A DNA stretch of 64,000 bases, taken from assembly GCA_964576795.1 (NCBI GenBank), contig CAZNWT010000001.1, forward strand, positions 56,697 through 120,696, given 5' to 3'. This document shows, piece after piece, positions 9,500-59,266 of this stretch. Origin of the DNA: an uncultured Victivallales bacterium. Its GTDB lineage: Bacteria; Verrucomicrobiota; Kiritimatiellia; UBA8416. The position numbers and the translations under genes were made by a program. The notes under the pieces are model-generated. The model made no database searches and was not told the origin of the DNA. It saw only the letters and a program-made list of their open reading frames with translations. Position 1 is the stretch's first letter. The number at the start of each line of letters is the position of its first letter.

Positions 9500-9525
9500 C
9501 AACGTTCTAACTTGAGGTGTTTTGT

Positions 9526-13093: not shown

Positions 13094-14029
13094 CTACGGA
13101 ATCACCAATAGCTGACCCACTTTTACATTCACAGAATCTCCCATCGTTTCACGATTGGCATTTTGGATTCTCCGCCATTGCGTGGCATCCCCATAAACCT
13201 TATAGGCAATTTTAGACAGAGAGTCACCAAGACGCACAGTATACGTTCGCACCAGACTCTCATCCTCGGCAGGGACCACCGCGTCTCTGGGGTTCGCAGC
13301 CCGAACGGGAGCGCTTTTTCGATTTGTTACAAGCGGTCTCTCAGACGGATCAGAAATGCTCCCCGAAAGCGGTTGACGCACTGTCGCGGGGGGACTGACA
13401 ACGGCTGCTCTCACGGGAGACCTAACATCATCTGGGACAACGTCCGGTTTTTGGGGAGACGGCAAGACGTCTGACGATACCGAAACGCCATCCGCACCGA
13501 CAACTTCTGCTTTATACCGTTGCCTTTCCAACTCACGAAGGTCATTCAAGTCTTTTTCTAATGCTTCAATACGGCTAACTAGAGATGCATTCTTCTCTTT
13601 GAGGGCGCTGTTCTCAGATGTCAGATCACTCACCGACACACCCGCAGCGGCTCCGGACACCGTATGTAGCCCCACAAATTCCCGTTCTGCCTGCCGGATA
13701 CGATCTTTAATCATCACGCCCTTTTCGGTGCCCGGTCGAAGCTCAAGATAGCGCGAATAATGATAAATCGCACGGACATAGTCCTGCTTTTGATCCTGCA
13801 ATAACAACGCCAGATCCAAATGAGGACGCGCCAAGTTGGGGTATGATTCTAACGCCTTTTCAAACAACGCAATGGCGGAATCATTGTCACCTTGATTCGA
13901 CATTTCATAGGCCTTGGTCACAATACGGTAATTCCGCTCACGCTCATCCATTCGTGCCGTGCGGTCGCAACCCACCATCACAACGGCAAAACTGAGAACC
14001 AACCAAAAACGGCAAGTTATAATTTTCAT
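13094..14029 (-). CDS. Lipoprotein with TPR, coiled-coil and C-terminal LysM domains
   Basis: Signal peptide ending VMVGC (lipobox-like), TPR-like helices, LysM YTVRLGDSLSKIAYKVYG..VGQLLVIP. Confidence 0.88.
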   Translation of the reverse strand: MKIITCRFWLVLSFAVVMVGCDRTARMDERERNYRIVTKAYEMSNQGDNDSAIALFEKALESYPNLARPHLDLALLLQDQKQDYVRAIYHYSRYLELRPGTEKGVMIKDRIRQAEREFVGLHTVSGAAAGVSVSDLTSENSALKEKNASLVSRIEALEKDLNDLRELERQRYKAEVVGADGVSVSSDVLPSPQKPDVVPDDVRSPVRAAVVSPPATVRQPLSGSISDPSERPLVTNRKSAPVRAANPRDAVVPAEDESLVRTYTVRLGDSLSKIAYKVYGDATQWRRIQNANRETMGDSVNVKVGQLLVIP

Positions 14030-14097
14030 AATCACAGATATATGTATACGCCGACAACTACAAGAAAGCAATTGGAGCTTTCTGCGATGTTAAGGAG

Positions 14098-21121: not shown

Positions 21122-22579
21122 ATGAAGCGATATCTATATACTTTACTAATCGTGTTTGGCTTTCTCTGGAGCCCCTCACCCACGCTAGCCATCGAAACCA
21201 ACACCGCCACAACAATCGTGATTCCCATCCAAGGCATGATCGGGCGCGGTCTGCTTTACGTAATTCGACGCGGGGTGAACGAAGCGCTTGACACTAACGC
21301 GAAAGCCATCATCTTCGATATGGATACCCCCGGCGGCCGCGTCGATGTCACCGAAGAGATCATCCGCACCATGATCGACCTGCCCGACACTATCGATACC
21401 TATACCTTTATTAACAAGGATGCACTCTCCGCAGGTTCCATGATAGCAATCGCAACCAAACATATTTACATGGCTCCCGGTAGCCGCATCGGAGCCAGCG
21501 CCATCGTCACTGCAACAGGTGATATGGAGGAGGGGGACCTTAAAGAAAAACATGTATCTTCTCTTGTGGCTCTTGTCCGCTCCGCATCGGAGCGAAACGG
21601 ACACGATCCAAAGCTTATCGAATCCATGATTCGCCGCGACATGGAGTACACTCTTGATGGCGACATGATCTGCAAAGAAGGGCAACTTCTGACGCTGACC
21701 GACCAGGATGCCGCTCGCATTGTCAACCGGGAGTCTGGAGCATCCCCTTTACTTTCAGAAGGAACCGCAGATACGCTCGCCTCACTCTTACACCAGGTCG
21801 GGCTTGATAACACAACCATACGGCGCATCGAGATCACGACACCGGAGCGTATCGCCCGCTTCATTGAAGTCTTTTCCTTCCTCTTTCTGGCAGGAGGCTT
21901 GCTCGGCATCTACATTGAATTCAAAACGCCCGGATTTGGTGTCCCCGGAATCACAGGAATCGTTCTGCTCGCCATCTTCTTTTGGGGCCATAATATTGCC
22001 GGGCTAGCCGGTGGCATAGAGGTGATTCTCTTCATCATCGGCACGGTTCTATTGGCACTTGAAATTCTTGTCATCCCCGGATTTGGCATTGCCGGGCTCT
22101 CGGGACTCTCCTTCATGCTGCTGGCCATTTTCATGGCCATGGTCGAGCACTACCCCGGAACGGATTGGTTCAAGCCACCCGTTATTCAGCTGGATGGAGC
22201 CGCAACCACCCTTGGTCTCGCAATCGCCGTTTCCCTCGCACTTGGACTCATTGTCGCACATATTCTATCCAAGACTGCTGCCTACCATCAGCTTATACTC
22301 ACTACAGCATTGGATCATGAACACGGGGTCTTTGCCTCCGCACCCACCGACAGCTTACTCGGCACCAAAGGCATTGCTGCAACGCCTCTGCACCCCTCTG
22401 GTTTCGGCACCTTTAATGGCAAACGTCTCAATGTCGTTGCGCATGGTGCATTTATCGACACAGGAGTTCCTATTGTAGTTGCTGAAACGCACGGAAACCG
22501 TATAGTGGTAGATGTAGATCGTACGTCGCAGTCAACAGACAAAACAGAAAACACAGAAAACACAGGCACATCTGCATGA
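21122..22579 (+). CDS. Long NfeD protein (ClpP-like serine protease domain, TM domain, OB-fold)
   Basis: Signal peptide, DTPGG, ALSAGS, IYMAPGSRIGAS, EFKTPGFG, C-terminal LHPSG..LNVVA. Confidence 0.9.
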   Translation: MKRYLYTLLIVFGFLWSPSPTLAIETNTATTIVIPIQGMIGRGLLYVIRRGVNEALDTNAKAIIFDMDTPGGRVDVTEEIIRTMIDLPDTIDTYTFINKDALSAGSMIAIATKHIYMAPGSRIGASAIVTATGDMEEGDLKEKHVSSLVALVRSASERNGHDPKLIESMIRRDMEYTLDGDMICKEGQLLTLTDQDAARIVNRESGASPLLSEGTADTLASLLHQVGLDNTTIRRIEITTPERIARFIEVFSFLFLAGGLLGIYIEFKTPGFGVPGITGIVLLAIFFWGHNIAGLAGGIEVILFIIGTVLLALEILVIPGFGIAGLSGLSFMLLAIFMAMVEHYPGTDWFKPPVIQLDGAATTLGLAIAVSLALGLIVAHILSKTAAYHQLILTTALDHEHGVFASAPTDSLLGTKGIAATPLHPSGFGTFNGKRLNVVAHGAFIDTGVPIVVAETHGNRIVVDVDRTSQSTDKTENTENTGTSA

Positions 22580-23070
22580 CAGAGCTCTTCTTTATTCTTG
22601 TTGTTGGCGGCCTCATGCTTATTGGAGCAGAAATCTTTATTCCCGGCGGTATTCTTGGCGTCATTGGAGGGCTTGCCCTATTCGCCTCCAGCATTGTAGC
22701 ATTTAAAATATTCTCAGAAGCTGTGGCCATCTACATTTCCATTGGCATCATCATCATGATCGGGGTTGTCATCGCACTGTGGATCAAGTTCTTTCCAAAA
22801 ACATGGGTTGGCAAGCAGATGATGATTGCCAGTGACCTGCACCGTGCAAAGGGGACCGAAGATGGCCTCAAAGCGCTACTCGGCACGGAAGGCATCACCA
22901 CATCCAGTCTGCACCCCGGAGGATTTGCCGAAATCAATGGACACCGCTATGATGTCATAACGCAAGGAGAAATGATTGATGTCGGAAGCCCCATTCGTGT
23001 AATTGAAATTGAAGGCAATCGAATTGTCGTCGAACAAAGCAACAAACAAAGCAACATAAAACAACAGTAA
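22576..23070 (+). CDS. Short NfeD-family membrane protein (TM helices plus OB-fold)
   Basis: [33 protein letters not shown]; ATGA overlap with the upstream gene. Confidence 0.88.
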
Positions 23071-23083
23071 AGAGGATACCGTT

Positions 23084-24100
23084 ATGCCAGCAACCGCCAT
23101 TATCGCTATTTTTGTAATCGTCGTCGCCTTCGCACTTCTTGCGGTCATCGCACGTTTTATTGGCGTGTGGGTGAGAGCATGGGTATCCGGAGCCCATGTT
23201 AATCTCCTATCGCTCATCGGAATGAGCATTCGTAAAGTTTCGCCAACCCTGATTGTGGATGCCCGCATCAGCCTCGTAAAAGCAGGGATAGCACTCTCCA
23301 CCAATGACCTCGAATCACACTATCTGGCTGGTGGCGACGTCATCAACGTTGTCAAAGCGTTAATTGCCGCAGACAAAGCCAACATCAATCTCACCTTTGA
23401 ACGTGCCGCCGCCATCGACCTTGCAGGCCGCGATGTCCAAGACGCCGTGCGCACTAGTGTTCAGCCCAAGGTCATTGACTGCCCCGACGCCAGCATCACC
23501 CCTAACGGGCTTGATGCCGTTGCCAAAGACGGTATTCGTCTCCTCGTCAAAGCCCGCGTCACCGTACGCGCCAACATTGAGCGCCTCGTCGGTGGTGCCG
23601 GAGAAGAGACCATCGTCGCCCGTGTCGGACAGGGAATCGTCAGCGCAATCGGCTCATCCGCAACCTACAAAGATGTGCTCGAGAACCCAGATCGCATCAG
23701 CCGCAAAGTGCTCGAAAGCGGGCTTGATGCACAAACCGGATTCGAAATTGTTTCGATTGATATCGCAGACATCAGCGTCGCCGGCATGATGAATGTTGCC
23801 AACGTCGGTGCCAATCTCGAAACCGAGCGGGCGGAAGCCGACAAGAAGATGCGCCAAGCCGAGGCCGAAGGTCGCAAAGCTATGGCCATTGCCCAAGAAC
23901 AGGAAATGCGCGCTCGTGTTCAAGAAATGAACGCCAAGGTGATTGAAGCCAAAGCCGAGGTTCCCAAAGCCCTCGCGCACGCCCTACGCGAAGGCACCAT
24001 GGGCGTGATGGACTACTATCGCCTCCAGAACATCGACTCTGACACCTCCATGCGCCGCACGATCGCAGGAGATGAAAACCAAGACGAAACGGGCGCATAG
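23084..24100 (+). CDS. floA: Flotillin-like protein FloA (YqfA, UPF0365)
   Basis: [40 protein letters not shown]. Confidence 0.93.
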
Positions 24101-48963: not shown

Positions 48964-50679
48964 CTATCCTTGCTGTTCTACTTCTTCCCGCAGACGCTCA
49001 ATAGCGGCATCCAACGTCATAACCGTTTGCTCGCCATCGCGACCGCGAAGGGCCACCGTATGGCTTTCCTGCTCATTCCCGCCCACAATCATCATGTACG
49101 GAACACGCTCATTGCGTGCCAATCGAATCTTAGCGCCAATCCGCTCAGAGCGACGATCCACAGCAACCCTAAAATCGAGTTCCCGTAGCTGTGTCGTAAT
49201 CTGATCGGCATAATCAAGCTGATCATCTGTGATGGGTAGCACCTTGATCTGCTCCGGAGCCAACCACATCGGAAATTTCCCACCGTAATGCTCCACGAGA
49301 ACAGCAAAGAAACGCTCAATGCTACCGAGCAAAGCGCGGTGTACCATATAGGGGCGATGATCACAACCATCCTCCCCCGTGTATTTTAGATCAAAACGCT
49401 CGGGTAAATTGAAATCAAATTGAATCGTGCCCATCTGCCACTCACGGCCAATTGCATCCTTAATCTTGAGGTCGATCTTGGGACCATAAAAAGCCCCCCC
49501 CCCTGCATCAACCTCATAGGCAATAGACTCCGACGTCAGCGCCTCCTTCAGAGATGCCGTGGCTTGATCCCAACGGGAGGCCTCACCAACGGCCTTTTCC
49601 GGACGGGTCGAAAGATAGGCCGTGACATCATCAAACCCAAAGGCCTTCAGCATGTTCAGCGCAAAGGTGACCGTTGTCTTGATCTCATCCTGAATCTTTT
49701 CCGGGGTACAGAAAATATGGGCATCATCCTGAGTAAATCCTCGTACGCGCAACAATCCGTGCAAAACACCGCTCTTCTCATAGCGATACACCGTGCCAAG
49801 TTCGGCCCACCTTAGCGGAAGCTCACGATAAGAGCGTTTGTGGCTCTTATAAACCTGAATATGAAACGGGCAATTCATCGGCTTGACGAAATAATCGTGA
49901 CCGTCCACATCCATCGGCGCGTACATATTTTCTTTGTAGAAATCCAAATGCCCAGACGTCTCCCACAACTCAGCGCGGCCAATATGCGGAGAATAAAGCA
50001 ACTCATAGCCCGAGCGAAAGTGCTCACGCCGCCAAAAATCTTCAATGATCGAACGGATCCGTGCACCGCGAGGATGCCAATGCACAAGCCCTGGACCCAC
50101 ATCCTCCTGAATGCTGAACAGGTCCATCTCCTTGCCAATCTTCCGATGATCGCGCTTCTTCGCCTCCTCAAGCCGCTTAAGAAGCACCTTCACCTGCTTT
50201 GGAGACTCTGCTGCAATTCCGTAAATGCGTTGCAACATCGGATTGGTCTCTTTACCGCGAAAATAGGACCCCGCTACTGAAGTCAGCTTGAACCCTCTAA
50301 TGTCCCGGGTGCTTTCCACATGGGGCCCACGGCACAAATCCAGAAAATCCGCGCAACGGTAAAAGGTAATGGTTTCCCCTTCGGGAATATCGGAGAGCCG
50401 TTCCAGCTTAAACTTCTGGCCGACGGCCTGAAGCATCTCAACCGCCTCTTCACGAGACACCTCGATACGTTCAAAAGGACTATTCTCCACCACGATTTCA
50501 GCCATTTTCGCTTCAATGGCCACAAAATCATCGGGAGTGAGGCGCTTCGGGAGGTCTACATCATAGTAGAAGCCACTATCGGTCGCCGGACCAATGTCCA
50601 ACTGGACATCGTCGTAAAGCCGACAAATTGCGGCTGCCATCACATGCGCCGTACTATGGCGCAGTCGTTCAAGATCCAA
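48964..50679 (-). CDS. thrS: Threonine--tRNA ligase, lacking the TGS domain
   Basis: LRHSTAHVMAAA, DLCRGPH, RDHRKIG, KPMNCP, RGFTQDDAHIFC, AFYGPKID. TTG start at 50679 with a GGGGAG RBS. Confidence 0.97.
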   Translation of the reverse strand: MDLERLRHSTAHVMAAAICRLYDDVQLDIGPATDSGFYYDVDLPKRLTPDDFVAIEAKMAEIVVENSPFERIEVSREEAVEMLQAVGQKFKLERLSDIPEGETITFYRCADFLDLCRGPHVESTRDIRGFKLTSVAGSYFRGKETNPMLQRIYGIAAESPKQVKVLLKRLEEAKKRDHRKIGKEMDLFSIQEDVGPGLVHWHPRGARIRSIIEDFWRREHFRSGYELLYSPHIGRAELWETSGHLDFYKENMYAPMDVDGHDYFVKPMNCPFHIQVYKSHKRSYRELPLRWAELGTVYRYEKSGVLHGLLRVRGFTQDDAHIFCTPEKIQDEIKTTVTFALNMLKAFGFDDVTAYLSTRPEKAVGEASRWDQATASLKEALTSESIAYEVDAGGGAFYGPKIDLKIKDAIGREWQMGTIQFDFNLPERFDLKYTGEDGCDHRPYMVHRALLGSIERFFAVLVEHYGGKFPMWLAPEQIKVLPITDDQLDYADQITTQLRELDFRVAVDRRSERIGAKIRLARNERVPYMMIVGGNEQESHTVALRGRDGEQTVMTLDAAIERLREEVEQQG

Positions 50680-50730
50680 TGCTAAGTCTCCCCAGTCCTG
50701 TATTTGCTCTAACGCACGAAAACATCGGGA

Positions 50731-50759
50731 AAAATAAGCGTTTTCGGCATAGGTGTCAA
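50731..50759 (-). promoter_or_regulatory. Sigma70 promoter of the thrS-infC-rpmI-rplT operon
   Basis: TTGACA (50759-50754), 17-nt spacer, TATTTT (50736-50731). Confidence 0.6.
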
Positions 50760-50892
50760 TGCTTGCGTTAGGCAATCGCATCTTAACTTTGAAACAGATT
50801 CAACTTTTTCCGGACAGGCTCACTTACTCAGTTACCCTTAAACGATAAACTTAACCGGATCCGTGGAGAGCAAATGTGCATAAGGGCCAATG

Positions 50893-50911
50893 AAAAAACC
50901 GGACGTTCCGG
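50893..50911 (-). terminator. Weak terminator candidate after the VWA gene
   Basis: 5-bp stem CCGGA / TCCGG followed by T6 on the minus strand. Confidence 0.35.
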
Positions 50912-50918
50912 AAAGGAT

Positions 50919-52679
50919 CTAAAAAAGGCTGCGCTTGTAGGGAATGGGCTCTTTGTAGCGCTTGGACATGCGGCGCAATTCATCCAACACCACCGCATCG
51001 CGACTTCGGGCATACTCACCTATTAGATGATAGATTTTCTGCTGTGCCCACTGCTCCCGGATGGTTTTATCCGAACTCTGATTCGATGGCGTTGACAAAG
51101 GAAGATCAAAAATGAGGTCACACGGGGTGTCGCCCGCTTGCCCCATTGCCTGAAAGACAAGCTTCGGCTCCCCGCGTCGATAGCGTCCGTAAAGTACCAA
51201 AGGTCGATCAAGGTAGAGGTTGCTCACCTGCCGGGGATATACCTCGCAGGAGAATCCTGAGGAGAATTGCAATCGCAAGTCTGCCAATACAGGGCGGCTA
51301 ATGCCCTGCATCACCGCCTCCGCACTTTCCGGAATATCCCAACGGCCCTTGGAAACAATGTCAACGTAGCCTTTGTTGCAATAGCTCAACAGATCGATTA
51401 GATAGCGGTTTGCCAGTTGCGAGGCCCCCATCGTAAACACAGAAATCTCACCTGCATTACGCCGGCTAAACTCGCCGATAATCTCCGAGCTGTCTGTCAG
51501 CCCCTTATTTGCAAGACCATCAGTAATCACAAATGCAATTACCGGACGCTCTGGGTTGTTTTCCAACATCAACAGATCCTGCATTGATGCAAAGAGATCG
51601 GTATAGCCCTCAGCCCGCATGCTTTTGATGTAAGCCTCGGCACGGGCCAGCGTCTCTGGTGTTTTCGTCACCCAGCTATCAAAACAGGTCTCTGTATGAT
51701 CCGCAAATTTGGCAATATTAAAACGATCCGATGGGCCAATGTGCGCGAGACAACGCAACAATCCGTCCCGGCAGAAATGGAGGCGCTGCTCAGACATGCT
51801 CGCCGAACAATCTTGCACCAGAATAATGTCCTTGGGTCTCACCGGCAGCAGCTCTTCTCCAGCGCGCTCAACTTCGAGTCTAAAATAGCCATACTCACGA
51901 TCACGCGAATACAGATAGGTTTCCACCCTCGCAGTCAACACCCGTTCGATCGGTTCCACATCAGTGACATCTTCCACCGTTTCCTGAAATAGCTCACGCG
52001 TTCCGCCAGGTGCCAAAGTCTCATCCACAGACTGCGGAACCTCTGATGCAACGCCACCATCCATGCCCCCCACAACCGCATCAACAATATCGGCAACGGA
52101 GGGGGGTGCCATGGGAAGTCCCCCAGACGTTTGCTCCAACGCGTCCGGCATTGCCGGCAATACAATATCGGGGGCATTTGGAACACGCTCAATAGCCAGA
52201 ATAACGCGCCGTTCAAGGCCAGGACGCACATCTCCCACCGCAATGTTCTCAATGGCCAGGATCGCTTGTCGCGGCTGCCATACACTTTGGACAGGAGAAG
52301 GAGTGGGCTCGGAAAGATTCTCCATTTCCCCAACCGAACTATCTTCTTCAAGCGCCGGAGGTACGGTTACCCCCTCTTCTGGAGCAACACGCATTTCATC
52401 CACAGCTTCAAGAAAGTTGGGAGCACCGACAGCACGCAGCGCAGTGAGAACTTGTTCCTCAACCTGTGGGGTCACCTCAACCGCCCCCAGCCGTACCGCT
52501 TCATACCGGCGAGGCGGATGCTCGACTGGCCCCCCGGAAATTTTCCCAAAGTTGACATATGAGGCAAGAATGACCAATCCCATGTGCACTAGAAAAGACA
52601 CCACTGCCGCCGCAACGGCCGCTGAAAAGTGTCCGTTACCAAAGGCAAACGGGGCGTCACGATCTGTTAGTTCTGCCAT
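50919..52679 (-). CDS. Membrane-anchored VWA-domain protein with a TonB-like N-terminal helix and Pro/Glu-rich linker
   Basis: TM AAVVSFLVHMGLVILA (S-x3-H), P/E-rich linker, MIDAS QDCSASM..GYTD..VITDG, C-terminal WAQQKI helix. Confidence 0.85.
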   Translation of the reverse strand: MAELTDRDAPFAFGNGHFSAAVAAAVVSFLVHMGLVILASYVNFGKISGGPVEHPPRRYEAVRLGAVEVTPQVEEQVLTALRAVGAPNFLEAVDEMRVAPEEGVTVPPALEEDSSVGEMENLSEPTPSPVQSVWQPRQAILAIENIAVGDVRPGLERRVILAIERVPNAPDIVLPAMPDALEQTSGGLPMAPPSVADIVDAVVGGMDGGVASEVPQSVDETLAPGGTRELFQETVEDVTDVEPIERVLTARVETYLYSRDREYGYFRLEVERAGEELLPVRPKDIILVQDCSASMSEQRLHFCRDGLLRCLAHIGPSDRFNIAKFADHTETCFDSWVTKTPETLARAEAYIKSMRAEGYTDLFASMQDLLMLENNPERPVIAFVITDGLANKGLTDSSEIIGEFSRRNAGEISVFTMGASQLANRYLIDLLSYCNKGYVDIVSKGRWDIPESAEAVMQGISRPVLADLRLQFSSGFSCEVYPRQVSNLYLDRPLVLYGRYRRGEPKLVFQAMGQAGDTPCDLIFDLPLSTPSNQSSDKTIREQWAQQKIYHLIGEYARSRDAVVLDELRRMSKRYKEPIPYKRSLF

Positions 52680-55039
52680 GTCGCATCCACCTTTCCGACC
52701 CATTCGCTCTGCGGATAACGCTCCGTAAGCTCCAGCACCGCCTTATTTCGATCCTCAAATTGCTTTAGACGATCAAATGCGAGAGCCGCACGATATAGAC
52801 TCTCTGGAACCAATTCAAGATGATCATAGAGAATAGCCACACTCATGTAATAGCGCGAGGCATCATCATCGCGATTGCCAATTTCTGCTGCACGTCCAAG
52901 CCCGAAGAAAGCGCGTGCCCGAACCGCCAAACCACTATCATCTTCGGTCGTCTTCTTCGATGCCATTCTGAAATATTCATCTGCCGCAGGGGCATCCCCT
53001 TTTGTAAGCGACAAATCACCCAAACGCAAAGCAGCCTCAGCAGCATAGCGGGTATTCACCTTAAGCTCCAGCGCATGCTTGAAAGCCGCTTCCGCCTCCT
53101 GATCTTTCCCGCGTGCGATTTCAGCTCTCGCCAAAAGCACCCACCCCGCCTGCTCCCAGGCAGGCTCTTCTGTCGTTTCCACAAGAAGCTTTGCTGCTGC
53201 TGCGGCCTTGTCGTACGCCTTCTGCTCACCATAATGTGTAGAGATCCACTCTAATAATGTCGGGGGGAACTTACCGATCAGCGGCGAAGCCAGCAACTGC
53301 TGCAACAGATCGGCGGCTTCGTCATTGCGGCCTAGCTTCTGAAGGACAAGCCCAAGCTGAAAGGTGGACTCACGACGCAATTCATCACGCGATGCATGTT
53401 GCATCGCAAGACGAAACTCCCGCTCGGCTGCTGCCAGTTGATCCTGCTCTCGCAACAGCATTCCCTTCCAATAGTAGGCATCCGGGACAAAGCGACCTTT
53501 AGGAAACTGGCGAAGCAGTTCAGAGAGCGAGGCGATGGCATTCTCCCGACGCATAAGTTGAATCTCGCTCATCGCCTTCTGATACAACGCATCCTGAACA
53601 AGCTCGTGCTTTGGATATTCGTAAACTAGTCGTCGCCAATCGCGCGCGGCCGCTTCATGCGCGTTCGCGTTCGCCAGACAGAATGCCGATGCATAGAGCG
53701 CTTTCGGAGCAAGAGGATCCTTCGGGAAATCGGCTACGAGCGCATTGTAGATCGTCGAGGCTTCGAGATATGACTTCTGCTTCTGGAGCTGGTGGGCGAG
53801 ACGGTACGTGGCATCCCTCGCCCGGTCCGTTCCCGGAACATCCCGCATCACCATCCGATAGTACTGCGTTGCCTGTGATCCATGATCCAGAGCGGCATTC
53901 GCTTCGGCCAGCAGCCAACAAACCTCCGTGCGCAACTCTGGCGTCAGACGCACGCGTTCAGCATGCCTGATCGCATCGGCATATTTCCCCATCTTGAAAT
54001 AGGCCACGGCAATTTCGTAACGGGCCGACTCAACAAAACGGCTCTTTGGAAAACGAGTTAACAGTTCCAGATAGGATTTTACCGACGTTCGATTCTGTAG
54101 CAATTGTCGCTCACTATTGGCCCGAATGTAAAGCCACTCATCCTGACCGTTAACCGTCTTGGAATCTAAAAGCGCAGCCTCAGCCAAAGCGCTTGACTCG
54201 GCATATAACCCCGCATTACAAGCAGACCATGCCGCCTGCATACGGGCCGCAGCGGAGCGCTCATCGGCAGGAAAACGCGTCAACAGCTGTCGATAATACG
54301 CTGCACTTTGTTCAAATTCATGCTGGTGAAAATAAATCTCTGCCATCTGAAAAAGCGCCTCGGCGGCAATCCGATCAGATCCTGGCCGCTCCAGAGCTTT
54401 CTTAAAGAATCCAAGAGCTTGATCAGCCAGCCGCTTGGCTTCGCCGTTTTTCGCATTCAAGGCGGTAGTCCAGCGATCCCGATAAATATCGCCACGTTTT
54501 ATCAAAGCATATACATAGAACATCGTGTTCGCATGCTCGGTAATCACGCGCGCAAAAGTCGCGTCCGCTTGATCCCCATCACCCATTTCCAGCAAGGCTT
54601 CGCCAAGATAGTAAAGCGATGCAGACGCAAGATCAGCGGGAGGATTCACGATCAAGATAACATTGAAATGGGCCGCAGCAGAGGCAAAGTCACCATCAGT
54701 CATATAGAGTCGCGCCCGACGATAGGCCGCACGTAGACGAAAAGGACTTTGCTTGTAGTCAACGACAACGCGCGAATAGATCCGCCCCGCTTCGGAAGTC
54801 TTCCCCTGCAACCGCAAGCACTCAGCCATACGAAAGGTTGCCGCATCGGATTGCTCACCCTTTGAAAAATCAATAAGGATGGAGGCATATTCCTTTACTG
54901 CGAGCTCATACATTTCACGCGTGTAAAGCCCATCGGCAAATTGTATACGGTCCGTATACGCATCCGCAAATACGGAAGGCGTCACAGCCAAACCTATCGC
55001 GAGGAGGGCCAACCCCAATCGGGTGTAGCGCGGGTTCAT
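52667..55039 (-). CDS. Exported multi-TPR protein (CpoB/BamD-like repeats)
   Basis: Signal peptide followed by repeated A..Y..LL..FP.S..A.Y..A helical units along the whole length. Confidence 0.88.
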   Translation of the reverse strand: MNPRYTRLGLALLAIGLAVTPSVFADAYTDRIQFADGLYTREMYELAVKEYASILIDFSKGEQSDAATFRMAECLRLQGKTSEAGRIYSRVVVDYKQSPFRLRAAYRRARLYMTDGDFASAAAHFNVILIVNPPADLASASLYYLGEALLEMGDGDQADATFARVITEHANTMFYVYALIKRGDIYRDRWTTALNAKNGEAKRLADQALGFFKKALERPGSDRIAAEALFQMAEIYFHQHEFEQSAAYYRQLLTRFPADERSAAARMQAAWSACNAGLYAESSALAEAALLDSKTVNGQDEWLYIRANSERQLLQNRTSVKSYLELLTRFPKSRFVESARYEIAVAYFKMGKYADAIRHAERVRLTPELRTEVCWLLAEANAALDHGSQATQYYRMVMRDVPGTDRARDATYRLAHQLQKQKSYLEASTIYNALVADFPKDPLAPKALYASAFCLANANAHEAAARDWRRLVYEYPKHELVQDALYQKAMSEIQLMRRENAIASLSELLRQFPKGRFVPDAYYWKGMLLREQDQLAAAEREFRLAMQHASRDELRRESTFQLGLVLQKLGRNDEAADLLQQLLASPLIGKFPPTLLEWISTHYGEQKAYDKAAAAAKLLVETTEEPAWEQAGWVLLARAEIARGKDQEAEAAFKHALELKVNTRYAAEAALRLGDLSLTKGDAPAADEYFRMASKKTTEDDSGLAVRARAFFGLGRAAEIGNRDDDASRYYMSVAILYDHLELVPESLYRAALAFDRLKQFEDRNKAVLELTERYPQSEWVGKVDATWQN

Positions 55040-55044
55040 GTCGA

Positions 55045-55461
55045 CTACTCCTCAGCAGCGGATGTGGCAAACGAGATGTTCCAGATGTCAACTTGGCGAC
55101 AGAGATCCAGAACGCCAATCACGTGCTCATATGCGGTACGCTTGTCAGCCCGAATCAGAACAGGCAGACCGGGATGAATCTCAACAATACGCGTCAAAAG
55201 ATCCGAGAGCCCATCCTGTTGGAGCTGCCGTTGATTCACAATCGCCACCCCGTCTTCACGAATGTTGATGATTATCTCCAGCGGCAACCGATCCGGCACC
55301 TCACCAGTTTCAGCCGTGGGCAGCTTGATATCAATTTCACTCTCCCACTGCGCATAGATCTGTGCCGCAATGAAGAAGCACAATAGCAGGAACATGATAT
55401 CAATCATGGGGGCGAGCTGGAATCCCGCGCTAGGCGGTTGTGTCTTTCCCCGAAAATTCAC
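55045..55461 (-). CDS. exbD: Biopolymer transport protein, ExbD/TolR family
   Basis: APMIDIMFLLLCFF with the conserved TM Asp; VLIRADK. Confidence 0.93.
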   Translation of the reverse strand: MNFRGKTQPPSAGFQLAPMIDIMFLLLCFFIAAQIYAQWESEIDIKLPTAETGEVPDRLPLEIIINIREDGVAIVNQRQLQQDGLSDLLTRIVEIHPGLPVLIRADKRTAYEHVIGVLDLCRQVDIWNISFATSAAEE

Positions 55462-56216
55462 TTCGCCGATCTCCTACTCAACAGGGCCATGAAAATACCA
55501 GCCGAGGCCGACTCTAACAGCGATACCAATTTTGACGAACACCGCCGGAAATAGGCGTAGAACATCATTGCAGGAATACCCACAACCAAACCAAATGCCG
55601 TTGTCAGCATGGCCTTATTAACACCCGCAACCAATGCAGTCGGGCGCACAACGGCAATCTGATCGGAAACAGCATTGAATGCGATCATCATACCAAACAC
55701 GGTACCCAGCAGCCCAATCATGGGAGCCACAGCAGCAATATCCATCAGATACTGCGTCTGCCCCTGAATCGACTCGGATTGGCGTGCGCCCTCTGCCTCA
55801 ACCACATCCCGCATCAACATGGGATCGGCATCAGGAATACTCTTCATATGGTCAAGGGCCGTCAAAACAACGGCTGTCAATGGCCCCCGCTTAAAGCTGC
55901 ACAACCGCCGCACATCATCAAGCGCTCCAGCCTGTATCTTCGCCATCAGTTCACTGCGAAACGGCTCAGGCACAATCTGCTGCTTACGCAGCACAACAAA
56001 GAAATAGAGAATCAACGCAAGCGTACCTACAGAGAGCGCTCCCAAGACACCATACACACCCTTCACTGCAAGATCCATAGCAGCAGGAAACGATACACCA
56101 CTCTCACTCAGTGCAACGCCATCGCCAGCAACCTCCTGTGCATACCCCGGCATCACGACCACACTCCCCAGAATCACCCCCACAATCAGAAACGCACTCA
56201 CACACCATCTCTTCAT
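55458..56216 (-). CDS. exbB: MotA/TolQ/ExbB proton channel protein
   Basis: APMIGLLGTVFGM, AMLTTAFGLVVGIPA; N-terminal signal-like extension. Confidence 0.93.
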   Translation of the reverse strand: MKRWCVSAFLIVGVILGSVVVMPGYAQEVAGDGVALSESGVSFPAAMDLAVKGVYGVLGALSVGTLALILYFFVVLRKQQIVPEPFRSELMAKIQAGALDDVRRLCSFKRGPLTAVVLTALDHMKSIPDADPMLMRDVVEAEGARQSESIQGQTQYLMDIAAVAPMIGLLGTVFGMMIAFNAVSDQIAVVRPTALVAGVNKAMLTTAFGLVVGIPAMMFYAYFRRCSSKLVSLLESASAGIFMALLSRRSAK

Positions 56217-56255: not shown

Positions 56256-57638
56256 TTAATCCCCAAGATCCGGGTACGAAACCCCTAACAGATCTGAGAG
56301 AACAGCATAGTAACGCTTTCGGTTCGTCTTAACAAACAACAATCCGTCCGTCGCTCGCTTCTTCAACACCTTGAAGTCAAGTCCAGCCGAAGCGCCCTCG
56401 TGTACCTTTGCAGCGATAGCGACCTGGGGGTCCACATCACCCAGTTCGCCCAAGGTTGCCTTCACCGTATCGTACGCATCCCGGAAAGGCACCCCTGCCG
56501 CCACCAACTCCAAAGCACGATCCGTAGCAAAAACGCCCGGACTAAAACCACGCAACAGTGCAGCAGCATCAACCTCTACATGCCCCATTACCAACGCCAC
56601 AGCTCGCAGGGCATCACGCGTTACGCCAACCCCCTCAAGGAAAGGTTCTTTTGTCTCCTGAAGATCACGTTGATATCCCCCGGGAAGTCCCTTTAGAATA
56701 CCGGTAACACTGTTTGTGCAAGCCAGGACCTTAGCCGTACGCGCGCGGACCAATTCAAAAACATCCGGATTCTGCTTCTGCGGCATAATGCTGCTGCCAG
56801 TACAATACTCCGATGACAAGCGGAAATAGGCAAACTCCGGCATCATAAACAAAATCATATCTTCAGCGAGCCGAGAGAGCGACAGCATCACCTGCGAGGT
56901 CGCGGCCAACACCACACTCTCGCATTTCCCTCGCGCCATGCTCGCGTACATCACATTGTGAATAGGCCGCTCAAACCCCAACAACCGGGCTGTAAGGGGG
57001 CGATCAATCGCTAGTGGAACACCATACCCTGCTGCCGACCCCAGCGGACAACGATCATTCTGGGCATAGGCTGCAATCAGCCCTTCAATATCATCCAAAA
57101 GACTCTCGGCATGCGCAGAGGCCCACACACCAACGGAACTTGGCATAGCAGGTTGAAGATGCGTCCGACCCACCATCGGCACCATGGCGTGCCGCTGCCC
57201 CAGCGCCAATAGGACACGGGCAAGTTCAGCAGCATCCTCAATCATCCCAAAAAGTTGTTCTTTGCCATACAACCGGAGATCAACCGCAACCTGATCATTG
57301 CGGCTACGAGCGGTATGCACCCGTTTTCCAACATCACCGAGTTTTGTGCTGAGCGAACGCTCTACTGCCAGGTGTACATCCTGATCCTTTGTGCGAATGG
57401 GGAAACGCCCCGCACGAGCGCGGCGCATAATCGCTACTAATTCGCGAATCACCCCAGCACGTTCTGCCTCTGAAAACAGGGGTTCCTTTAGCTTCAGCTT
57501 GGACAGCATCTGCACATGCGCAGCAGAACCAATACAGTCTGCTTCAACCAAAGCCCCATCTAAAATCACATCTTTGCCAGCAGTGAATGCCAGTACCTCG
57601 GGGTGGATCTGTCCAACCAATGTTTTCCGAGCCGTCAT
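56256..57638 (-). CDS. argH: Argininosuccinate lyase
   Basis: HTARSRNDQV, GRTHLQPA, PLGSAAGYG, GSSIMPQKQNPD, GYQRDLQETK. Confidence 0.95.
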   Translation of the reverse strand: MTARKTLVGQIHPEVLAFTAGKDVILDGALVEADCIGSAAHVQMLSKLKLKEPLFSEAERAGVIRELVAIMRRARAGRFPIRTKDQDVHLAVERSLSTKLGDVGKRVHTARSRNDQVAVDLRLYGKEQLFGMIEDAAELARVLLALGQRHAMVPMVGRTHLQPAMPSSVGVWASAHAESLLDDIEGLIAAYAQNDRCPLGSAAGYGVPLAIDRPLTARLLGFERPIHNVMYASMARGKCESVVLAATSQVMLSLSRLAEDMILFMMPEFAYFRLSSEYCTGSSIMPQKQNPDVFELVRARTAKVLACTNSVTGILKGLPGGYQRDLQETKEPFLEGVGVTRDALRAVALVMGHVEVDAAALLRGFSPGVFATDRALELVAAGVPFRDAYDTVKATLGELGDVDPQVAIAAKVHEGASAGLDFKVLKKRATDGLLFVKTNRKRYYAVLSDLLGVSYPDLGD

Positions 57639-57684: not shown

Positions 57685-58923
57685 TCATTCGGTGAGAATG
57701 CCGCCAGCGGCTTCGACCTTTTCACTCAATTGTGTCAAGGCGGCATTCACCGCCTCCAAACGTCTCAACAACACGGCGCCTGATGCACCCTTTTCAAGAT
57801 TCGAAAGAAATTGGCCCAATCGCACAATAATAGATCGAAAACTTTCAGAGCGTCCCGCCGCCAGCAAATCCAGTCGACTGCGCTTCTGTCGCACAAACGA
57901 AGCGATCCAATCCTCTTTCCGCAACGGCACCAATTGGGCCAGCAAGGATCCCTTCGGAAGCTCAACAGAAAGGGGGATACCACACACACCGGGATAAATC
58001 AACAGTTCGGATCGTAGTTGATCAATCAGCCGAGTCGACACCATTCCCAATGCATACACCACATGCTCCTGCTGGATGAGCCAGCGCTCCCAGGCTTCAT
58101 CAGCCCGCAGCTCTCCCCCCTCCGACACAAGCAGAGTAAGTTTCTCCATCGTGAGAGGTTGCCCAGCAGACAACTGCTTAAACAACGCCTGAAATCGCTT
58201 CTGTCGCGTGGGTAGGTCCGTCAACCAGTGCACAAAAACCCCATAAGCCGCTAGGCGTTGAGGATCGTCTAATCTATCAGGAGGCACAGGTGAGCCATCC
58301 CCAAGAATATCCCAGAATGAAATCAAGCCGCCAGAGCGCCAGAGCGCCAAAACCTTCTCAATATTCTCGGCGCGCACCTTAGGCCACAGATTCTGCTCAA
58401 CGCCCTTCACCAACCACGGAGGAAATGCCGGCTCCGTCGCATTGAGAGAGACACCCACATAAGCCGCCAGCAGGGACGCACAAAGCCGCTGTAGACCCTC
58501 AGATGAATAGGCAACGTCGTAATCTTCCAGATAAACTAGGTGAAACCACTGGTTCCCTCGCCGCACTACCTGCACATAAAGCACCTCCGGAAGCGCCGCG
58601 TTCTCAGCGCTGACATTCAGATGCACGGTCCGATTATTGAAAGGCAACGAAAAACCCGTAACAGATTCGACCCGATCAGTAACCTCTTCGCACCAAGAGG
58701 CCAAAGCCACATTCTCCAAGCGATTCGTCCCCGTAACGATGAAATGGCCGGAAATACTACGGGAGCTCATCTCTGAAATAGCAGCAATACGGGATCGGAT
58801 GGATTCAAGCGTGTCATCCGTTGCAGCACAAAACGACGGCATCAAGACGAAGGCCCAAAACGCTAAGAAAAAGATATATATAGGCATGATCGGCATCGTA
58901 CCGCCCGGATACGGGCAGCACAA
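57685..58923 (-). CDS. Exported hypothetical protein with a degenerate peptidase-MA-like motif; start uncertain
   Basis: Hydrophobic N-terminus; PPWLVKGVEQ resembles PxWxxEG but no HExxH is present. Confidence 0.7.
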   Translation of the reverse strand: MCCPYPGGTMPIMPIYIFFLAFWAFVLMPSFCAATDDTLESIRSRIAAISEMSSRSISGHFIVTGTNRLENVALASWCEEVTDRVESVTGFSLPFNNRTVHLNVSAENAALPEVLYVQVVRRGNQWFHLVYLEDYDVAYSSEGLQRLCASLLAAYVGVSLNATEPAFPPWLVKGVEQNLWPKVRAENIEKVLALWRSGGLISFWDILGDGSPVPPDRLDDPQRLAAYGVFVHWLTDLPTRQKRFQALFKQLSAGQPLTMEKLTLLVSEGGELRADEAWERWLIQQEHVVYALGMVSTRLIDQLRSELLIYPGVCGIPLSVELPKGSLLAQLVPLRKEDWIASFVRQKRSRLDLLAAGRSESFRSIIVRLGQFLSNLEKGASGAVLLRRLEAVNAALTQLSEKVEAAGGILTE

Positions 58924-58928
58924 ACTTC

Positions 58929-59225
58929 TTATTCGGAAGCTTTTTTAGAGTCAGGCTTCGAGGACGATGACGGCTTCTCGCTGCTGCTTGAGCTCGACGC
59001 AGATGCAGCAGCACTCTCCTTGCTGGCAGCATCGCGATAGCTCTTGCTCCTATAGTCAGTCTGATAGAACCCACTGCCCTTGAAAATAATGCCAGCACCC
59101 GAACCGATAAGTTTGCGAACCTTGCATCTACACTTTGGACACCGCTTAACCGGCTCATCCAACATGCTCTGAAACCGCTCAAAGACGTGACCACATTTCG
59201 TGCACTCATATTCATACGTGGGCAT
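58929..59225 (-). CDS. FmdB family zinc-ribbon protein
   Basis: MPTYEYECTKCGHVFE..CPKC..IFKGSGFYQTDY. Confidence 0.93.
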   Translation of the reverse strand: MPTYEYECTKCGHVFERFQSMLDEPVKRCPKCRCKVRKLIGSGAGIIFKGSGFYQTDYRSKSYRDAASKESAAASASSSSSSEKPSSSSKPDSKKASE

Positions 59226-59266
59226 AACTAACATCTCTCCAAATCGGGATCATCAAAACGGAGTAT

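What the first reader, a model, noticed from the sequence alone, without database searches (positions are those of the whole stretch)
50919..56216. ExbB-ExbD motor coupled to a TonB-like protein whose effector is a MIDAS VWA domain, plus a giant TPR scaffold
Seen: four tightly coupled genes (4-nt overlap, 5-nt gap, 13-nt overlap). ExbB and ExbD keep the proton-channel residues. The last gene has a single N-terminal TM with S-x3-H (SFLVH), matching the Ser/His of the TonB/TolA energy-coupling helix, though the rest of the SHLS motif is not evident. A Pro/Glu-rich spacer follows, then a VWA domain with full MIDAS (DxSxS..T..D) instead of a TonB_C domain. No TonB-dependent receptor, TolB or Pal is nearby. 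Established: related motors power TonB uptake, Tol-Pal and myxobacterial Agl-Glt gliding, which also uses TPR proteins and a VWA adhesin. Inference: an undescribed PMF-driven periplasmic machine that pulls on substrates through an integrin-like metal-dependent grip, possibly for envelope remodelling, protein extraction or assembly, or surface motility.
Basis: partly seen in the sequence, partly recalled or inferred. Interest (0 to 1): 0.8.

Follow-up and report, generated by a model that had tools for sequence, protein, structure and literature searches.

The report
Proton motor with VWA-headed TonB-like transducer
An uncultured PVC bacterium couples a Ton/Tol-type proton motor to a membrane-anchored protein that has the TonB/TolA anchor motif but an integrin-like metal-binding (VWA) head; this kind of machine was first proposed from sequence and structure prediction in 2025, this family looks like a distinct and better conserved variant, and its function is untested.

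Summary
Four translationally coupled minus-strand genes encode an ExbB/TolQ-like protein, an ExbD/TolR-like protein, a 790-aa exported TPR protein and a 586-aa VWA protein. The VWA protein has a TM helix, an acidic Pro/Glu spacer and a VWA head with a complete MIDAS. It has no TonB_C domain, and the window holds no TBDT, TolB or Pal.

The TM Ser-x3-His is essentially invariant: 113/114 hits and 123/123 cluster representatives. The MIDAS is equally conserved. The four-gene order holds in 37 of 45 informative related loci.

Williams-Jones et al. 2025 (MBE, PMC12204202) proposed motor-driven vWA force transducers next to tolQ/tolR-like and TPR genes in PVC bacteria, from predictions alone.

Their printed Tichowtungia exemplars differ from this family. 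They show no detectable homology to it, lack DxSxS, come as pairs and sit with two tolR-like genes.

Best reading: this is a TolA/TonB-analogous transducer (about 0.7), probably with a housekeeping, Tol-like envelope role (about 0.35-0.4). The same paper lists a MAG that carries this locus as having tolB-pal but "No TolA found".

Verdict: new variant of a known, still unproven kind. Interest is moderate to high.

The parts
55458..56216 (-). ExbB/TolQ-like stator subunit, 252 aa. It has a signal-peptide-like N-terminal extension, as in the 'long' ExbB type.
   Evidence: PF01618, E 3.2e-27. NCBIfam scores: tolQ 76 bits, exbB 66 bits, both below the equivalog cut-offs. Best PDB match is Serratia ExbB 7ajq, E 3e-12; TolQ follows at 1e-9. 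Channel residues: Thr172 in 35/38 (plus 3 Ser) and Thr206 in 38/38.
55045..55461 (-). ExbD/TolR-like stator subunit, 138 aa, single copy.
   Evidence: PF02472, E 9.2e-25. NCBIfam scores: tolR 60 bits, ExbD 38 bits. PDB match is ExbD 7ajq_F. Asp21 is conserved 39/39.
52667..55039 (-). Exported 790-aa all-helical TPR protein with about 20 helical hairpins and CpoB/YbgF-type repeats.
   Evidence: TPR_6, E 1e-31, plus 17 other TPR families. TIGR02795 (tol_pal_ybgF) scores 207 bits over 7 stretches, and BamD-like matches also occur. It has a Sec signal peptide and no conserved lipobox. A single-sequence AF2 model gives about 40 helices at low confidence. The gene sits directly upstream of the VWA gene in 38/45 informative loci.
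50919..52679 (-). Inner-membrane-anchored VWA protein of 586 aa, the proposed force transducer.
   Evidence: VWA_3, E 1.3e-10; no TonB_C. Residues 290-569 match TIGR03788 at E 1.6e-32, below the cut-off. AF2 mean pLDDT is 70.6, and 80-97 in the head. The top Foldseek hit is ITIH1 6fpy, E 3.5e-23. There are 242 homologues, and more than 150 clusters at 50% identity score below E 1e-112.
52557..52634 (-). TM helix, residues 16-41, with Ser28-x3-His32. The His32 codon is 52584-52586 and the Ser28 codon is 52596-52598.
   Evidence: AF2 models a helix at 16-41 with pLDDT about 87. Ser28 is present in 112/114 hits and His32 in 113/114. [ST]xxxH is present in 123/123 representatives. It is also kept in the most divergent clades.
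52473..52511 (-). Candidate D-box / motor-box strand, residues 57-69 (YEAVRLGAVEVTP), about 13 residues after the TM helix.
   Evidence: Its position and its alternating hydrophobic pattern ending in Thr-Pro resemble the E. coli TonB D-box QPISVTMVTPAD (PMC10907165). The pattern is moderately conserved. The AF2 monomer does not model it as a strand. This part is inference only.
51945..52547 (-). Acidic Pro/Glu-rich spacer, residues 45-245, with conserved islands at E106-P-P, W134-x-P-R-Q and R157...I-P-x-x-E-R-x-x-x-A-P-D171.
   Evidence: Composition and charge are. Family-wide spacer length is 199-220 aa. The region is mostly below pLDDT 50.
50922..51944 (-). ITIH-like head, residues 246-586. 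A beta-hairpin (248-272) is followed by the VWA domain (284-460), a beta-sandwich (463-527) and C-terminal helices. The MIDAS motif D290-C-S-A-S294 is encoded at 51798-51812, with T360 and D387 completing it.
   Evidence: Secondary structure and pLDDT are. Foldseek hits are ITIH1, ArnB, 4fx5, Sec23/24, pilus adhesins and integrin beta3. D290, S292, T360 and D387 are present in 114/114 hits; position 294 is Ser in 105 and Thr in 9. The nearest non-family relatives are VIT (PF08487) + VWA proteins.
50899..50911 (-). Terminator-like hairpin followed by a T-run, 8 nt after the VWA stop codon; a possible operon end.
   Evidence: Found. The overall number of such sites in the region is not above the shuffled expectation, so this is weak evidence.

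Best explanation
**What it is.** The locus encodes a Ton/Tol-type proton-driven stator (ExbB pentamer, ExbD dimer), an exported TPR accessory protein built of CpoB-like modules, and an inner-membrane-anchored force transducer.

**The transducer.** It has the topology of TonB/TolA:
- an N-terminal TM helix with an invariant Ser-x3-His face;
- a short D-box-like strand;
- an acidic Pro/Glu spacer of about 200 residues whose length is conserved.

Its head is different. It is an ITIH-like VWA domain with a complete MIDAS instead of the TonB/TolA C-terminal domain.

**Proposed mechanism.**
1. Proton flow through ExbB/ExbD (Asp21 and the Thr ring) is converted into movement of the transducer helix, which is bound at the ExbB periphery through His32.
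2. The spacer carries the head to the peptidoglycan/outer-membrane layer.
3. There a MIDAS-bound divalent cation coordinates an acidic side chain of a partner.
4. Motor force then displaces or remodels that partner.
5. The TPR protein probably scaffolds or regulates this step, as CpoB does for TolA.

**Likely role.** A constitutive cell-envelope function equivalent to TolA in Tol-Pal (outer-membrane tethering or constriction) is more likely than nutrient import or gliding.

**Shown.** Domain identities, motif conservation and synteny.

**Inferred.** Motor docking, the partner, the direction of force and the cellular role.

**Sub-probabilities.** Motor-coupled transducer, about 0.7. Tol-like envelope role, about 0.35-0.4.
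For: **Coupling to the motor.**
- Translational coupling links all four genes.
- The order exbB-exbD-TPR-VWA is kept in 37/45 informative loci down to about 33% identity and in independent metagenome contigs.
- TM Ser28 and His32 are invariant. This is the pair that TonB and TolA use to bind their motors (PMC12204202 introduction).
- Stator catalytic residues are conserved.
- For an analogous vWA family, published AF3 models dock the TM His on the motor.

**Head as a ligand-binding module.**
- The five MIDAS residues are invariant.
- The fold resembles ITIH1 and the integrin beta I-like domain.

**Tol-like role.**
- TolQ and TolR are the best NCBIfam models.
- The TPR protein has seven CpoB/YbgF-type modules.
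- The locus sits in a constant housekeeping neighbourhood (argH upstream; thrS-infC-rpmI-rplT-pheST downstream in the window and several relatives), and the family is large.
- The window has no TBDT.
- No TBDT genes were detected in Kiritimatiella glycovorans (PMC5148204).
- The MAG Lentisphaerae bacterium RIFOXYA12_FULL_48_11 carries this four-gene locus (L025). The 2025 paper's supplement lists it as 'tolQ-tolR-???- No TolA found', with tolB-pal elsewhere.
Against: - There is no experiment on any member, and no complex prediction could be run here.
- The N-terminal module has no detectable sequence homology to TonB or TolA. Only a two-residue motif and the topology match.
- The L and second S of SHLS are not in register.
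- PDB sequence search ranks ExbB above TolQ, so the Tol-versus-Ton assignment of the motor is ambiguous.
- TolB and Pal are not linked to the locus.
- TolA binds TolB by beta-strand addition, which a VWA head would not reproduce.
- In 7/45 informative loci the VWA gene is unlinked from exbBD and the TPR gene.
- One MAG has two paralogous copies (L052 and L054). That is more typical of TonB systems than of Tol.
- Whether this genome also has a canonical TonB or TolA is unknown.
Confidence: 0.6

Rival explanations
1. TonB-like import energiser. The VWA head engages one or more outer-membrane transporters, or surface lipoproteins, that lack a classical TonB box. Motor force then opens them for uptake of large substrates such as sulfated glycans.
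For: - PDB sequence search puts ExbB/ExbD first.
- The spacer is rich in Pro and acidic residues, which is TonB-like rather than like the helical TolA of gammaproteobacteria.
- One MAG has two paralogous copies, as is common for TonB.
- In some clades the transducer gene is unlinked from the motor genes, as tonB often is.
- The host lineage is polysaccharide-degrading; the window has a sulfatase next to a radical-SAM/SPASM gene.
Against: - No TBDT or other outer-membrane transporter is in the window or in the conserved neighbourhood.
- No TBDT genes were detected in K. glycovorans.
- The locus sits among translation and amino-acid housekeeping genes, not in a substrate-utilisation locus.
- There is no TonB_C domain to perform the known beta-strand pairing.
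Confidence: 0.15
2. Surface motility or adhesion machine related in principle to Agl-Glt. The motor drives a periplasmic VWA/TPR assembly that transmits force to a surface adhesin. This is the speculation offered by the 2025 paper for its own vWA family.
For: - Agl-Glt combines TolQR-type motors, TonB-like proteins, TPR proteins and the VWA adhesin CglB (PMC9946355 and PMC11761067, listed).
- The paper suggests gliding as a possible role.
Against: - In Agl-Glt the VWA protein is an outer-membrane lipoprotein, not the inner-membrane-anchored transducer, and the TonB-like proteins keep TonB_C domains.
- None of the other roughly 15 Glt components is near the locus.
- The locus is compact, with a constant housekeeping context, across marine, freshwater and sediment MAGs.
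- I know of no report of gliding in cultured Kiritimatiellota (own knowledge).
Confidence: 0.08
3. Co-located but mechanically uncoupled. The TM-VWA and TPR proteins form a passive periplasmic or inner-membrane scaffold, like the BatA/BatB/BatC aerotolerance proteins or a chaperone-type VWA. The adjacent ExbBD serves a canonical TonB or TolA encoded elsewhere.
For: - TM-anchored VWA proteins with TPR partners exist without motors (Bat operon; own knowledge).
- The TPR protein gives a weak match to TPR_BatC_Lepto.
- The VWA gene is unlinked from exbBD in 7/45 loci.
- The N-terminal module has no sequence homology to TonB or TolA.
Against: - A signal anchor would not need an invariant Ser-x3-His on one helix face across more than 230 diverged sequences.
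- Spacer length is conserved at 199-220 aa.
- Start and stop codons overlap within the operon.
- There is no BatA_N domain and no MoxR or DUF58 neighbour.
- The published supplement records that no TolA could be found in a MAG that carries the locus.
Confidence: 0.15

Closest known systems
Motor-driven vWA force transducers proposed by Williams-Jones et al. 2025 (Mol Biol Evol 42:msaf138, PMC12204202); exemplars are Tichowtungia aerotolerans transducers 1 and 2
   Same: - A TM helix with the TonB/TolA Ser/His motif, a disordered Pro-rich linker and a vWA-fold C-terminal domain.
- Adjacent tolQ/tolR-like motor genes and an uncharacterised TPR gene.
- Found in PVC bacteria.
- Function unknown and known only from prediction.
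   Different: - The printed exemplars (476 and 474 aa) show no significant similarity to this family. hhalign gives probability 5%, and only over the first VWA strand.
- They hit no Pfam VWA model.
- They carry D-A-D/N-K in place of DxSxS.
- They occur as a tandem pair with two heterologous tolR-like genes.
- Here there is one transducer, one exbD, the gene order tolQ-tolR-TPR-VWA, a complete MIDAS and an ITIH-like beta-sandwich.
- Whether the paper's Fig. 4a set includes members of this family could not be checked, because figures are not held.
Tol-Pal system (TolQ-TolR-TolA with CpoB/YbgF, TolB, Pal)
   Same: - A 5:2 stator with conserved Asp and Thr residues.
- A transducer with an N-terminal Ser-x3-His helix and a long spacer.
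- A TPR protein of the CpoB/YbgF repeat type encoded in the operon.
- A housekeeping genomic context.
   Different: - There is no TolA domain III.
- TolB and Pal are not in the locus or the window.
- The TPR protein is about three times the length of the E. coli CpoB model (NF008068, 263 positions) and holds seven YbgF-type repeat modules where TIGR02795 describes one.
- NCBIfam scores for tolQ and tolR are far below the equivalog cut-offs.
Ton system (ExbB-ExbD-TonB)
   Same: - The stator is most similar in sequence to solved ExbB and ExbD, including the 'long' ExbB type.
- The spacer is Pro-rich.
- A D-box-like strand sits after the TM helix.
   Different: - There is no TonB_C domain.
- There is no TonB-dependent transporter nearby.
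- The spacer is acidic and about 200 aa long.
VIT-VWA proteins: inter-alpha-trypsin-inhibitor heavy chains (PDB 6fpy), marine sortase-target proteins (TIGR03788), E. coli YfbK-like proteins
   Same: The head fold and its MIDAS. Foldseek E 3.5e-23 to ITIH1. TIGR03788 E 1.6e-32 over residues 290-569. VIT+VWA proteins are the nearest non-family sequences.
   Different: Those proteins are secreted or sortase-anchored, carry a full VIT domain, and have neither a TonB-like anchor nor a motor partner.
Myxococcus Agl-Glt gliding machinery with the CglB VWA adhesin
   Same: It combines a TolQR-type motor, TPR proteins and a MIDAS VWA protein in one trans-envelope machine (PMC9946355, PMC11761067).
   Different: In Agl-Glt the VWA protein is an outer-membrane lipoprotein and the transducers (GltG/GltJ) keep TonB_C domains. 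The machine has at least 17 components, none of which is found here.

Membership tests
vWA-type motor-driven force transducers (Williams-Jones et al. 2025) | N-terminal TM helix carrying the conserved Ser/His of the SHLS motor-binding motif | tested here: met
   Ser28 is present in 112/114 hits and His32 in 113/114. [ST]xxxH is present in 123/123 representatives. The Leu and second Ser of the motif are not in register.
vWA-type motor-driven force transducers (Williams-Jones et al. 2025) | Disordered, proline-rich linker containing a predicted motor box | tested here: inconclusive
   The linker is confirmed. A D-box-like motif lies at residues 57-69, but it is only moderately conserved and the AF2 monomer does not model it as a strand.
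vWA-type motor-driven force transducers (Williams-Jones et al. 2025) | C-terminal domain with a vWA fold instead of the TonB/TolA CTD | tested here: met
   Pfam VWA_3, VWA_2 and VWA match, and TonB_C does not. The AF2 model and Foldseek agree.
vWA-type motor-driven force transducers (Williams-Jones et al. 2025) | Synteny with tolQ/tolR-like motor genes and a TPR gene | tested here: met
   37/45 informative loci have the full set. The gene order differs from the paper's description, and there is one tolR-like gene, not two.
vWA-type motor-driven force transducers (Williams-Jones et al. 2025) | Sequence homology to the Tichowtungia exemplars used to define the family | tested here: not met
   hhalign gives probability 5.4% and aligns only 72 columns at the first VWA strand. 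The exemplar hits no Pfam VWA model.
vWA-type motor-driven force transducers (Williams-Jones et al. 2025) | TM His predicted to dock on the ExbB/TolQ pentamer | not testable with these tools
   No multimer prediction tool was available.
Ton system | Transducer with a TonB C-terminal domain (PF03544) | tested here: not met
   No hit at E <= 0.01.
Ton system | ExbB/ExbD stator with conserved Asp and Thr residues | tested here: met
Ton system | TonB-dependent transporter partner | tested here: not met
   None is present in the 64-kb window or in related loci. The whole genome was not available.
Tol-Pal system | TolA with C-terminal domain III | tested here: not met
   No TolA model matched in Pfam or NCBIfam.
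Tol-Pal system | TolB and Pal encoded with the motor or elsewhere in the genome | tested here: inconclusive
   Both are absent from the window. The 2025 paper's supplement reports them elsewhere in one MAG that carries this locus.
Tol-Pal system | CpoB/YbgF-type TPR protein | tested here: inconclusive
   TIGR02795 scores 207 bits, above its 90-bit cut-off, but the score is summed over 7 repeated stretches of a 790-aa protein. The CpoB equivalog NF008068 scores 90 bits against a 383-bit cut-off.
Bat aerotolerance proteins (BatA/BatB VWA, BatC TPR) | BatA N-terminal domain, MoxR ATPase and DUF58 neighbours | tested here: not met
   There is no BatA_N hit. BatC scores 36 bits against a 175-bit cut-off. 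No MoxR or DUF58 gene is in the neighbourhood.
Zorya or other anti-phage systems with MotA-like proteins | ZorA/ZorB plus effector proteins | tested here: not met
   Only a generic ZorA/MotA-domain hit for ExbB, E 7.7e-5. Nothing matched the other three proteins.

The most novel reading that the evidence does not exclude
This VWA protein is the long-missing functional TolA of a whole PVC lineage (Kiritimatiellia-like bacteria). These bacteria keep TolB-Pal but have no recognisable TolA. The protein would transmit motor force through a metal-ion (MIDAS) bond to an acidic residue of TolB, Pal or another outer-membrane partner. The beta-sandwich into which the VWA domain is inserted would couple tension to MIDAS affinity, as the hybrid domain does in integrins. 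That would make it an integrin-like catch bond in a bacterial trans-envelope motor.
Probability: 0.25. Interest if true: 0.8.

Novelty: new variant of a known kind. Interest (0 to 1): 0.55.

Why it matters
TonB and TolA were the only known ways for 5:2 proton motors to deliver force across the periplasm. Both grip their partners by beta-strand addition.

A third head that grips through a metal ion would widen the known mechanics of envelope energisation. It would also give Ton/Tol biologists an orthogonal system for asking how rotation becomes pulling.

This family has four practical advantages for such work:
- a complete, invariant MIDAS;
- a single transducer and a single ExbD;
- a spacer of conserved length;
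- a core-gene-like distribution across more than 150 clusters at 50% identity.

These make it a cleaner experimental target than the published exemplars.

If it proves to be the TolA substitute of Kiritimatiellia-like bacteria, it would also close a gap that the 2025 Tol-Pal catalogue explicitly left open, with entries such as "No TolA found" and "unable to annotate TolA".

Tried and rejected
1. **N-terminal profile against the PDB (A3, residues 1-75).** Only chance matches to small TM proteins (PsbI, LH1 alpha) appeared. Homology of the anchor to TonB or TolA cannot be shown by sequence.
2. **hhalign of the family against Tichowtungia transducer 1, plus Pfam on that exemplar.** There is no real similarity, so I did not file the window protein as a member of that sequence family.
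3. **Second homologue search with a profile of the most divergent clade (A2).** I hoped to find cultured isolates. It returned only 6 family members and VIT-VWA proteins, and no named organism.
4. **The single genome-collection scan.** It found only uncultured MAGs and SAGs. Kiritimatiella, Pontiella and Tichowtungia were not recovered. The exact-peptide patterns used may have missed them, so absence there is not shown.
5. **Single-sequence AF2 of the TPR protein.** Mean pLDDT was 54.5. The model supports only "all-helical, about 40 helices". I did not run a fold search on it.
6. **The look-up of encoding contigs on ORF 9517-11859.** No record was found, probably because the gene was called with a different start. 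ORF 8308-9474 replaced it.
7. **Defence-system reading.** Rejected on the PADLOC result and on the conserved housekeeping context.
8. **Bat-operon reading.** Rejected.
9. **Literature searches on Kiritimatiellota and TonB.** They gave only the statement that K. glycovorans has no detected TBDT genes.
10. **Terminator and promoter scan.** Site counts are at the chance level. Only the hairpin directly after the VWA stop codon is worth noting.
11. **TolB-Pal in the window's own genome.** This could not be tested, because only the 135-kb contig neighbourhood is reachable.


Full report
**1. What is in the sequence**

Four minus-strand ORFs lie between argH (56256-57638) and thrS (48964-50781):
- an ExbB-like gene, 55458-56216, 252 aa;
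- an ExbD-like gene, 55045-55461, 138 aa, with a GTG start;
- a TPR gene, 52667-55039, 790 aa;
- a VWA gene, 50919-52679, 586 aa.

An upstream ATG at 52703 would add eight residues to the VWA protein. Homologues begin at the MAELT position, and the public gene call is 586 aa.

Pfam gives MotA_ExbB (E 3e-27), ExbD (E 9e-25), a long list of TPR families, and VWA_3, VWA_2 and VWA. There is no TonB_C or TolA hit.

NCBIfam ranks tolQ above exbB (76 against 66 bits) and tolR above ExbD (60 against 38 bits). All four scores are far below the equivalog cut-offs. NCBIfam also finds seven stretches of the YbgF/CpoB model in the TPR protein, 207 bits in total.

**2. Stator residues**

Against solved structures, the ExbB-like protein is closest to the "long" Serratia ExbB (7ajq, E 3e-12). 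E. coli ExbB and TolQ follow.

The two channel threonines of ExbB align with Thr172 and Thr206. By my own knowledge these are Thr148 and Thr181 in E. coli numbering. ExbD Asp21 aligns with the Asp of the TPFIDVM motif, which is Asp25 in E. coli.

Across related loci, Asp21 is conserved 39/39. Thr206 is conserved 38/38. Thr172 is Thr in 35 and Ser in 3 of 38.

**3. The VWA protein**

An AF2 model built with a 20-sequence alignment has a mean pLDDT of 70.6. It shows:
- a confident TM helix at residues 16-41;
- a mostly disordered stretch at 42-240 with short helices;
- a beta-hairpin at 248-272;
- a VWA domain at 284-460;
- a beta-sandwich at 463-527;
- C-terminal helices at 539-585, with pLDDT of 80-97 across the head.

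Foldseek against the PDB puts inter-alpha-inhibitor heavy chain 1 first (6fpy, E 3.5e-23, about 340 aligned columns). Next come archaeal ArnB, a bacterial VWA protein (4fx5), Sec23/24, Gram-positive pilus adhesins and integrin beta3.

NCBIfam matches residues 290-569 to the VIT-VWA "marine sortase target" model, below its cut-off. The nearest sequences outside the family are VIT+VWA proteins of 730-1060 aa. The head therefore derives from the VIT-VWA/ITIH lineage.

The spacer, residues 45-245, is 11.4% Pro and 12.4% Glu, with 36 acidic and 12 basic residues. Its length is held to 199-220 aa across the family.

**4. Conservation of the diagnostic residues**

The first homologue search found 242 proteins. 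The best 120 run nearly full length at 39-74% identity. The few that carry a source name come from Verrucomicrobia, Lentisphaerae or Kiritimatiellia MAGs and are called "VWA domain-containing protein", "Mg-chelatase subunit ChlD", "Ca-activated chloride channel family protein" or "hypothetical protein".

In 114 full-length hits:
- Ser28 is present in 112 and His32 in 113; the exception at His32 is an alignment gap;
- D290, S292, T360 and D387 are present in all 114;
- position 294 is Ser in 105 and Thr in 9;
- His+7 is Leu, Ala or Val, and His+11 is polar rather than Ser, so only the S and H of SHLS are kept.

An exhaustive profile search of 1.84 billion cluster representatives returned more than 150 clusters at 50% identity with E below 1e-112. 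Of 123 new full-length representatives, all have [ST]xxxH within the first 80 residues, and 122 have DxSx[ST]. The most divergent clades, at 30-35% identity, keep both motifs.

Residues 57-69 (YEAVRLGAVEVTP) sit about 13 residues after the helix. They resemble the E. coli TonB D-box QPISVTMVTPAD in position and pattern (PMC10907165). This is a lead, not a test.

**5. Synteny**

One scan of species-representative genomes returned 60 loci, all from uncultured MAGs or SAGs of the PVC group.

I ran tblastn with the window's proteins and counted only loci with at least 4 kb upstream of the VWA gene. Of these 45 loci:
- 37 have exbB, a single exbD, the TPR gene and the VWA gene in this order;
- one has only the TPR gene, with DNA-methylase and restriction-like genes inserted upstream (L023);
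- seven have none of the three partner genes.

The seven fall into two or three clades on a neighbour-joining tree of the VWA proteins, so a few rearrangements account for them. In the two of these loci I inspected, L022 and L014 (= L065), the VWA gene stays next to thrS behind a DUF1015 gene; L022 keeps the Ser-x3-His helix.

The wider block argH-exbB-exbD-TPR-VWA recurs at about 41% identity and in a JGI contig. There is never room for a second exbD.

**6. Surroundings**

Gene calls with precomputed Pfam hits cover window positions about 1-62.7 kb. They contain no TonB_C, TolA, TolB/PD40, OmpA/Pal or TonB-dependent receptor family. A terminator-like hairpin lies 8 nt after the VWA stop codon.

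**7. What is already known**

Williams-Jones et al. [quoted passage not shown] It describes proteins with a TM helix bearing the SHLS motif, a disordered linker with a motor box, and a vWA-fold C-terminal domain.

[quoted passage not shown] AF3 models place the TM His on the motor. The paper states that the function is unknown and that no deletion phenotype has been reported.

The supplement prints the two Tichowtungia aerotolerans exemplars, 476 and 474 aa. Compared with the window family:
- profile comparison gives probability 5% and aligns only 72 columns at the first VWA strand;
- the exemplar hits no Pfam VWA model;
- in place of DxSxS it reads D-A-D-K-R or D-A-N-K-L.

The window family is thus a different sequence family with the same architecture, and it alone has a canonical MIDAS. 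I could not see the paper's Fig. 4a, so I cannot exclude that some loci of this family were among its WebFlaGs hits.

**8. A clue to function**

[quoted passage not shown] For Kiritimatiella glycovorans it lists "tolB - pal ... unable to annotate TolA specifically".

My locus L025 comes from that very MAG and has argH-exbB-exbD-TPR-VWA-thrS. At least one genome with this system therefore has TolB and Pal, and the authors found no TolA in it.

Four further observations point towards a Tol-like envelope role:
- the stator's top NCBIfam models are TolQ and TolR;
- the TPR protein carries CpoB-type repeats;
- the genomic context is constant and housekeeping;
- no TBDT is nearby, and none was detected in K. 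glycovorans (PMC5148204).

Several points argue against it:
- PDB sequence similarity prefers ExbB and ExbD;
- one MAG has two paralogous copies (L052 and L054);
- a VWA head cannot reproduce TolA's beta-strand addition to TolB;
- the link rests on one MAG and on another group's negative search.

**9. Mechanism and rivals**

I rate the motor-coupled-transducer reading at about 0.7. I rate a Tol-like envelope role, within that reading, at about 0.35-0.4.

The rivals are:
- a TonB-like import energiser (0.15);
- a co-located but uncoupled VWA/TPR scaffold, with ExbBD serving a TonB or TolA encoded elsewhere (0.15);
- a gliding or adhesion machine (0.08).

Defence-system and Bat-operon readings were tested and rejected.

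**10. Limits**

- No complex could be modelled.
- The N-terminal module has no detectable homology to TonB or TolA.
- The TPR model is poor.
- No cultured carrier was identified.
- The window's genome beyond the contig neighbourhood is out of reach.

**11. Verdict**

This is a new variant of a known, so far purely predicted, kind. Interest is 0.55.

Noticed in passing
window 57685-58923 (-) and 58929-59234 (-): A 412-aa exported protein with no Pfam match lies just upstream of argH, on the same strand as the operon. A Zn_ribbon_8 (FmdB-like) gene precedes it by 5 nt. The 412-aa protein is syntenic in at least 22 related loci at 24-54% identity, so it could belong functionally to the block.
   Followed up: partly
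L052 (5841-7229) and L054 (2359-4095), both from MAG 'PVC group bacterium T3Sed10_310R1': One genome carries two paralogous TPR-VWA copies, 65% identical to each other. One has exbB-exbD upstream; the other contig starts inside the TPR gene.
   Followed up: partly
L023 1-4500: Upstream of the TPR gene, exbB-exbD are replaced by DNA-methylase and restriction-like genes. This looks like an insertion of a restriction-modification island into the operon.
   Followed up: partly
L066 11800-21800: In this JGI contig the VWA gene is followed by small unannotated genes, two phage-type integrases and a Fic/AlbA-type gene instead of thrS. The conserved block is broken here by a mobile element.
   Followed up: no
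L065 11915-13635: In this MAG, thrS is called as two pieces of 381 and 209 aa. This is probably a frameshift or an assembly error.
   Followed up: no
window 55458-56216 (-), residues 1-45: The ExbB-like protein has a signal-peptide-like N-terminal extension. Its best match is the 'long' ExbB of Serratia (7ajq), not E. coli ExbB.
   Followed up: partly
window 5499-6953 (+) and 7273-8301 (+): A sulfatase gene sits next to a radical-SAM/SPASM gene, which looks like an anaerobic sulfatase-maturase pair. This is typical of sulfated-glycan degraders of the Kiritimatiellota type.
   Followed up: no
window 13094-14071 (-): A LysM + TPR protein, a putative peptidoglycan-binding protein, lies beside a 222-aa protein with no family match (12339-13007).
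   Followed up: no
window 21122-24100 (+): An NfeD-NfeD-FloA (flotillin-like) membrane microdomain gene cluster.
   Followed up: no
window 50899-50911 (-): A GC-rich hairpin followed by a T-run lies 8 nt after the VWA stop codon, which would end the operon before thrS. Terminator-like sites in the region are not more frequent than in shuffled sequence.
   Followed up: partly
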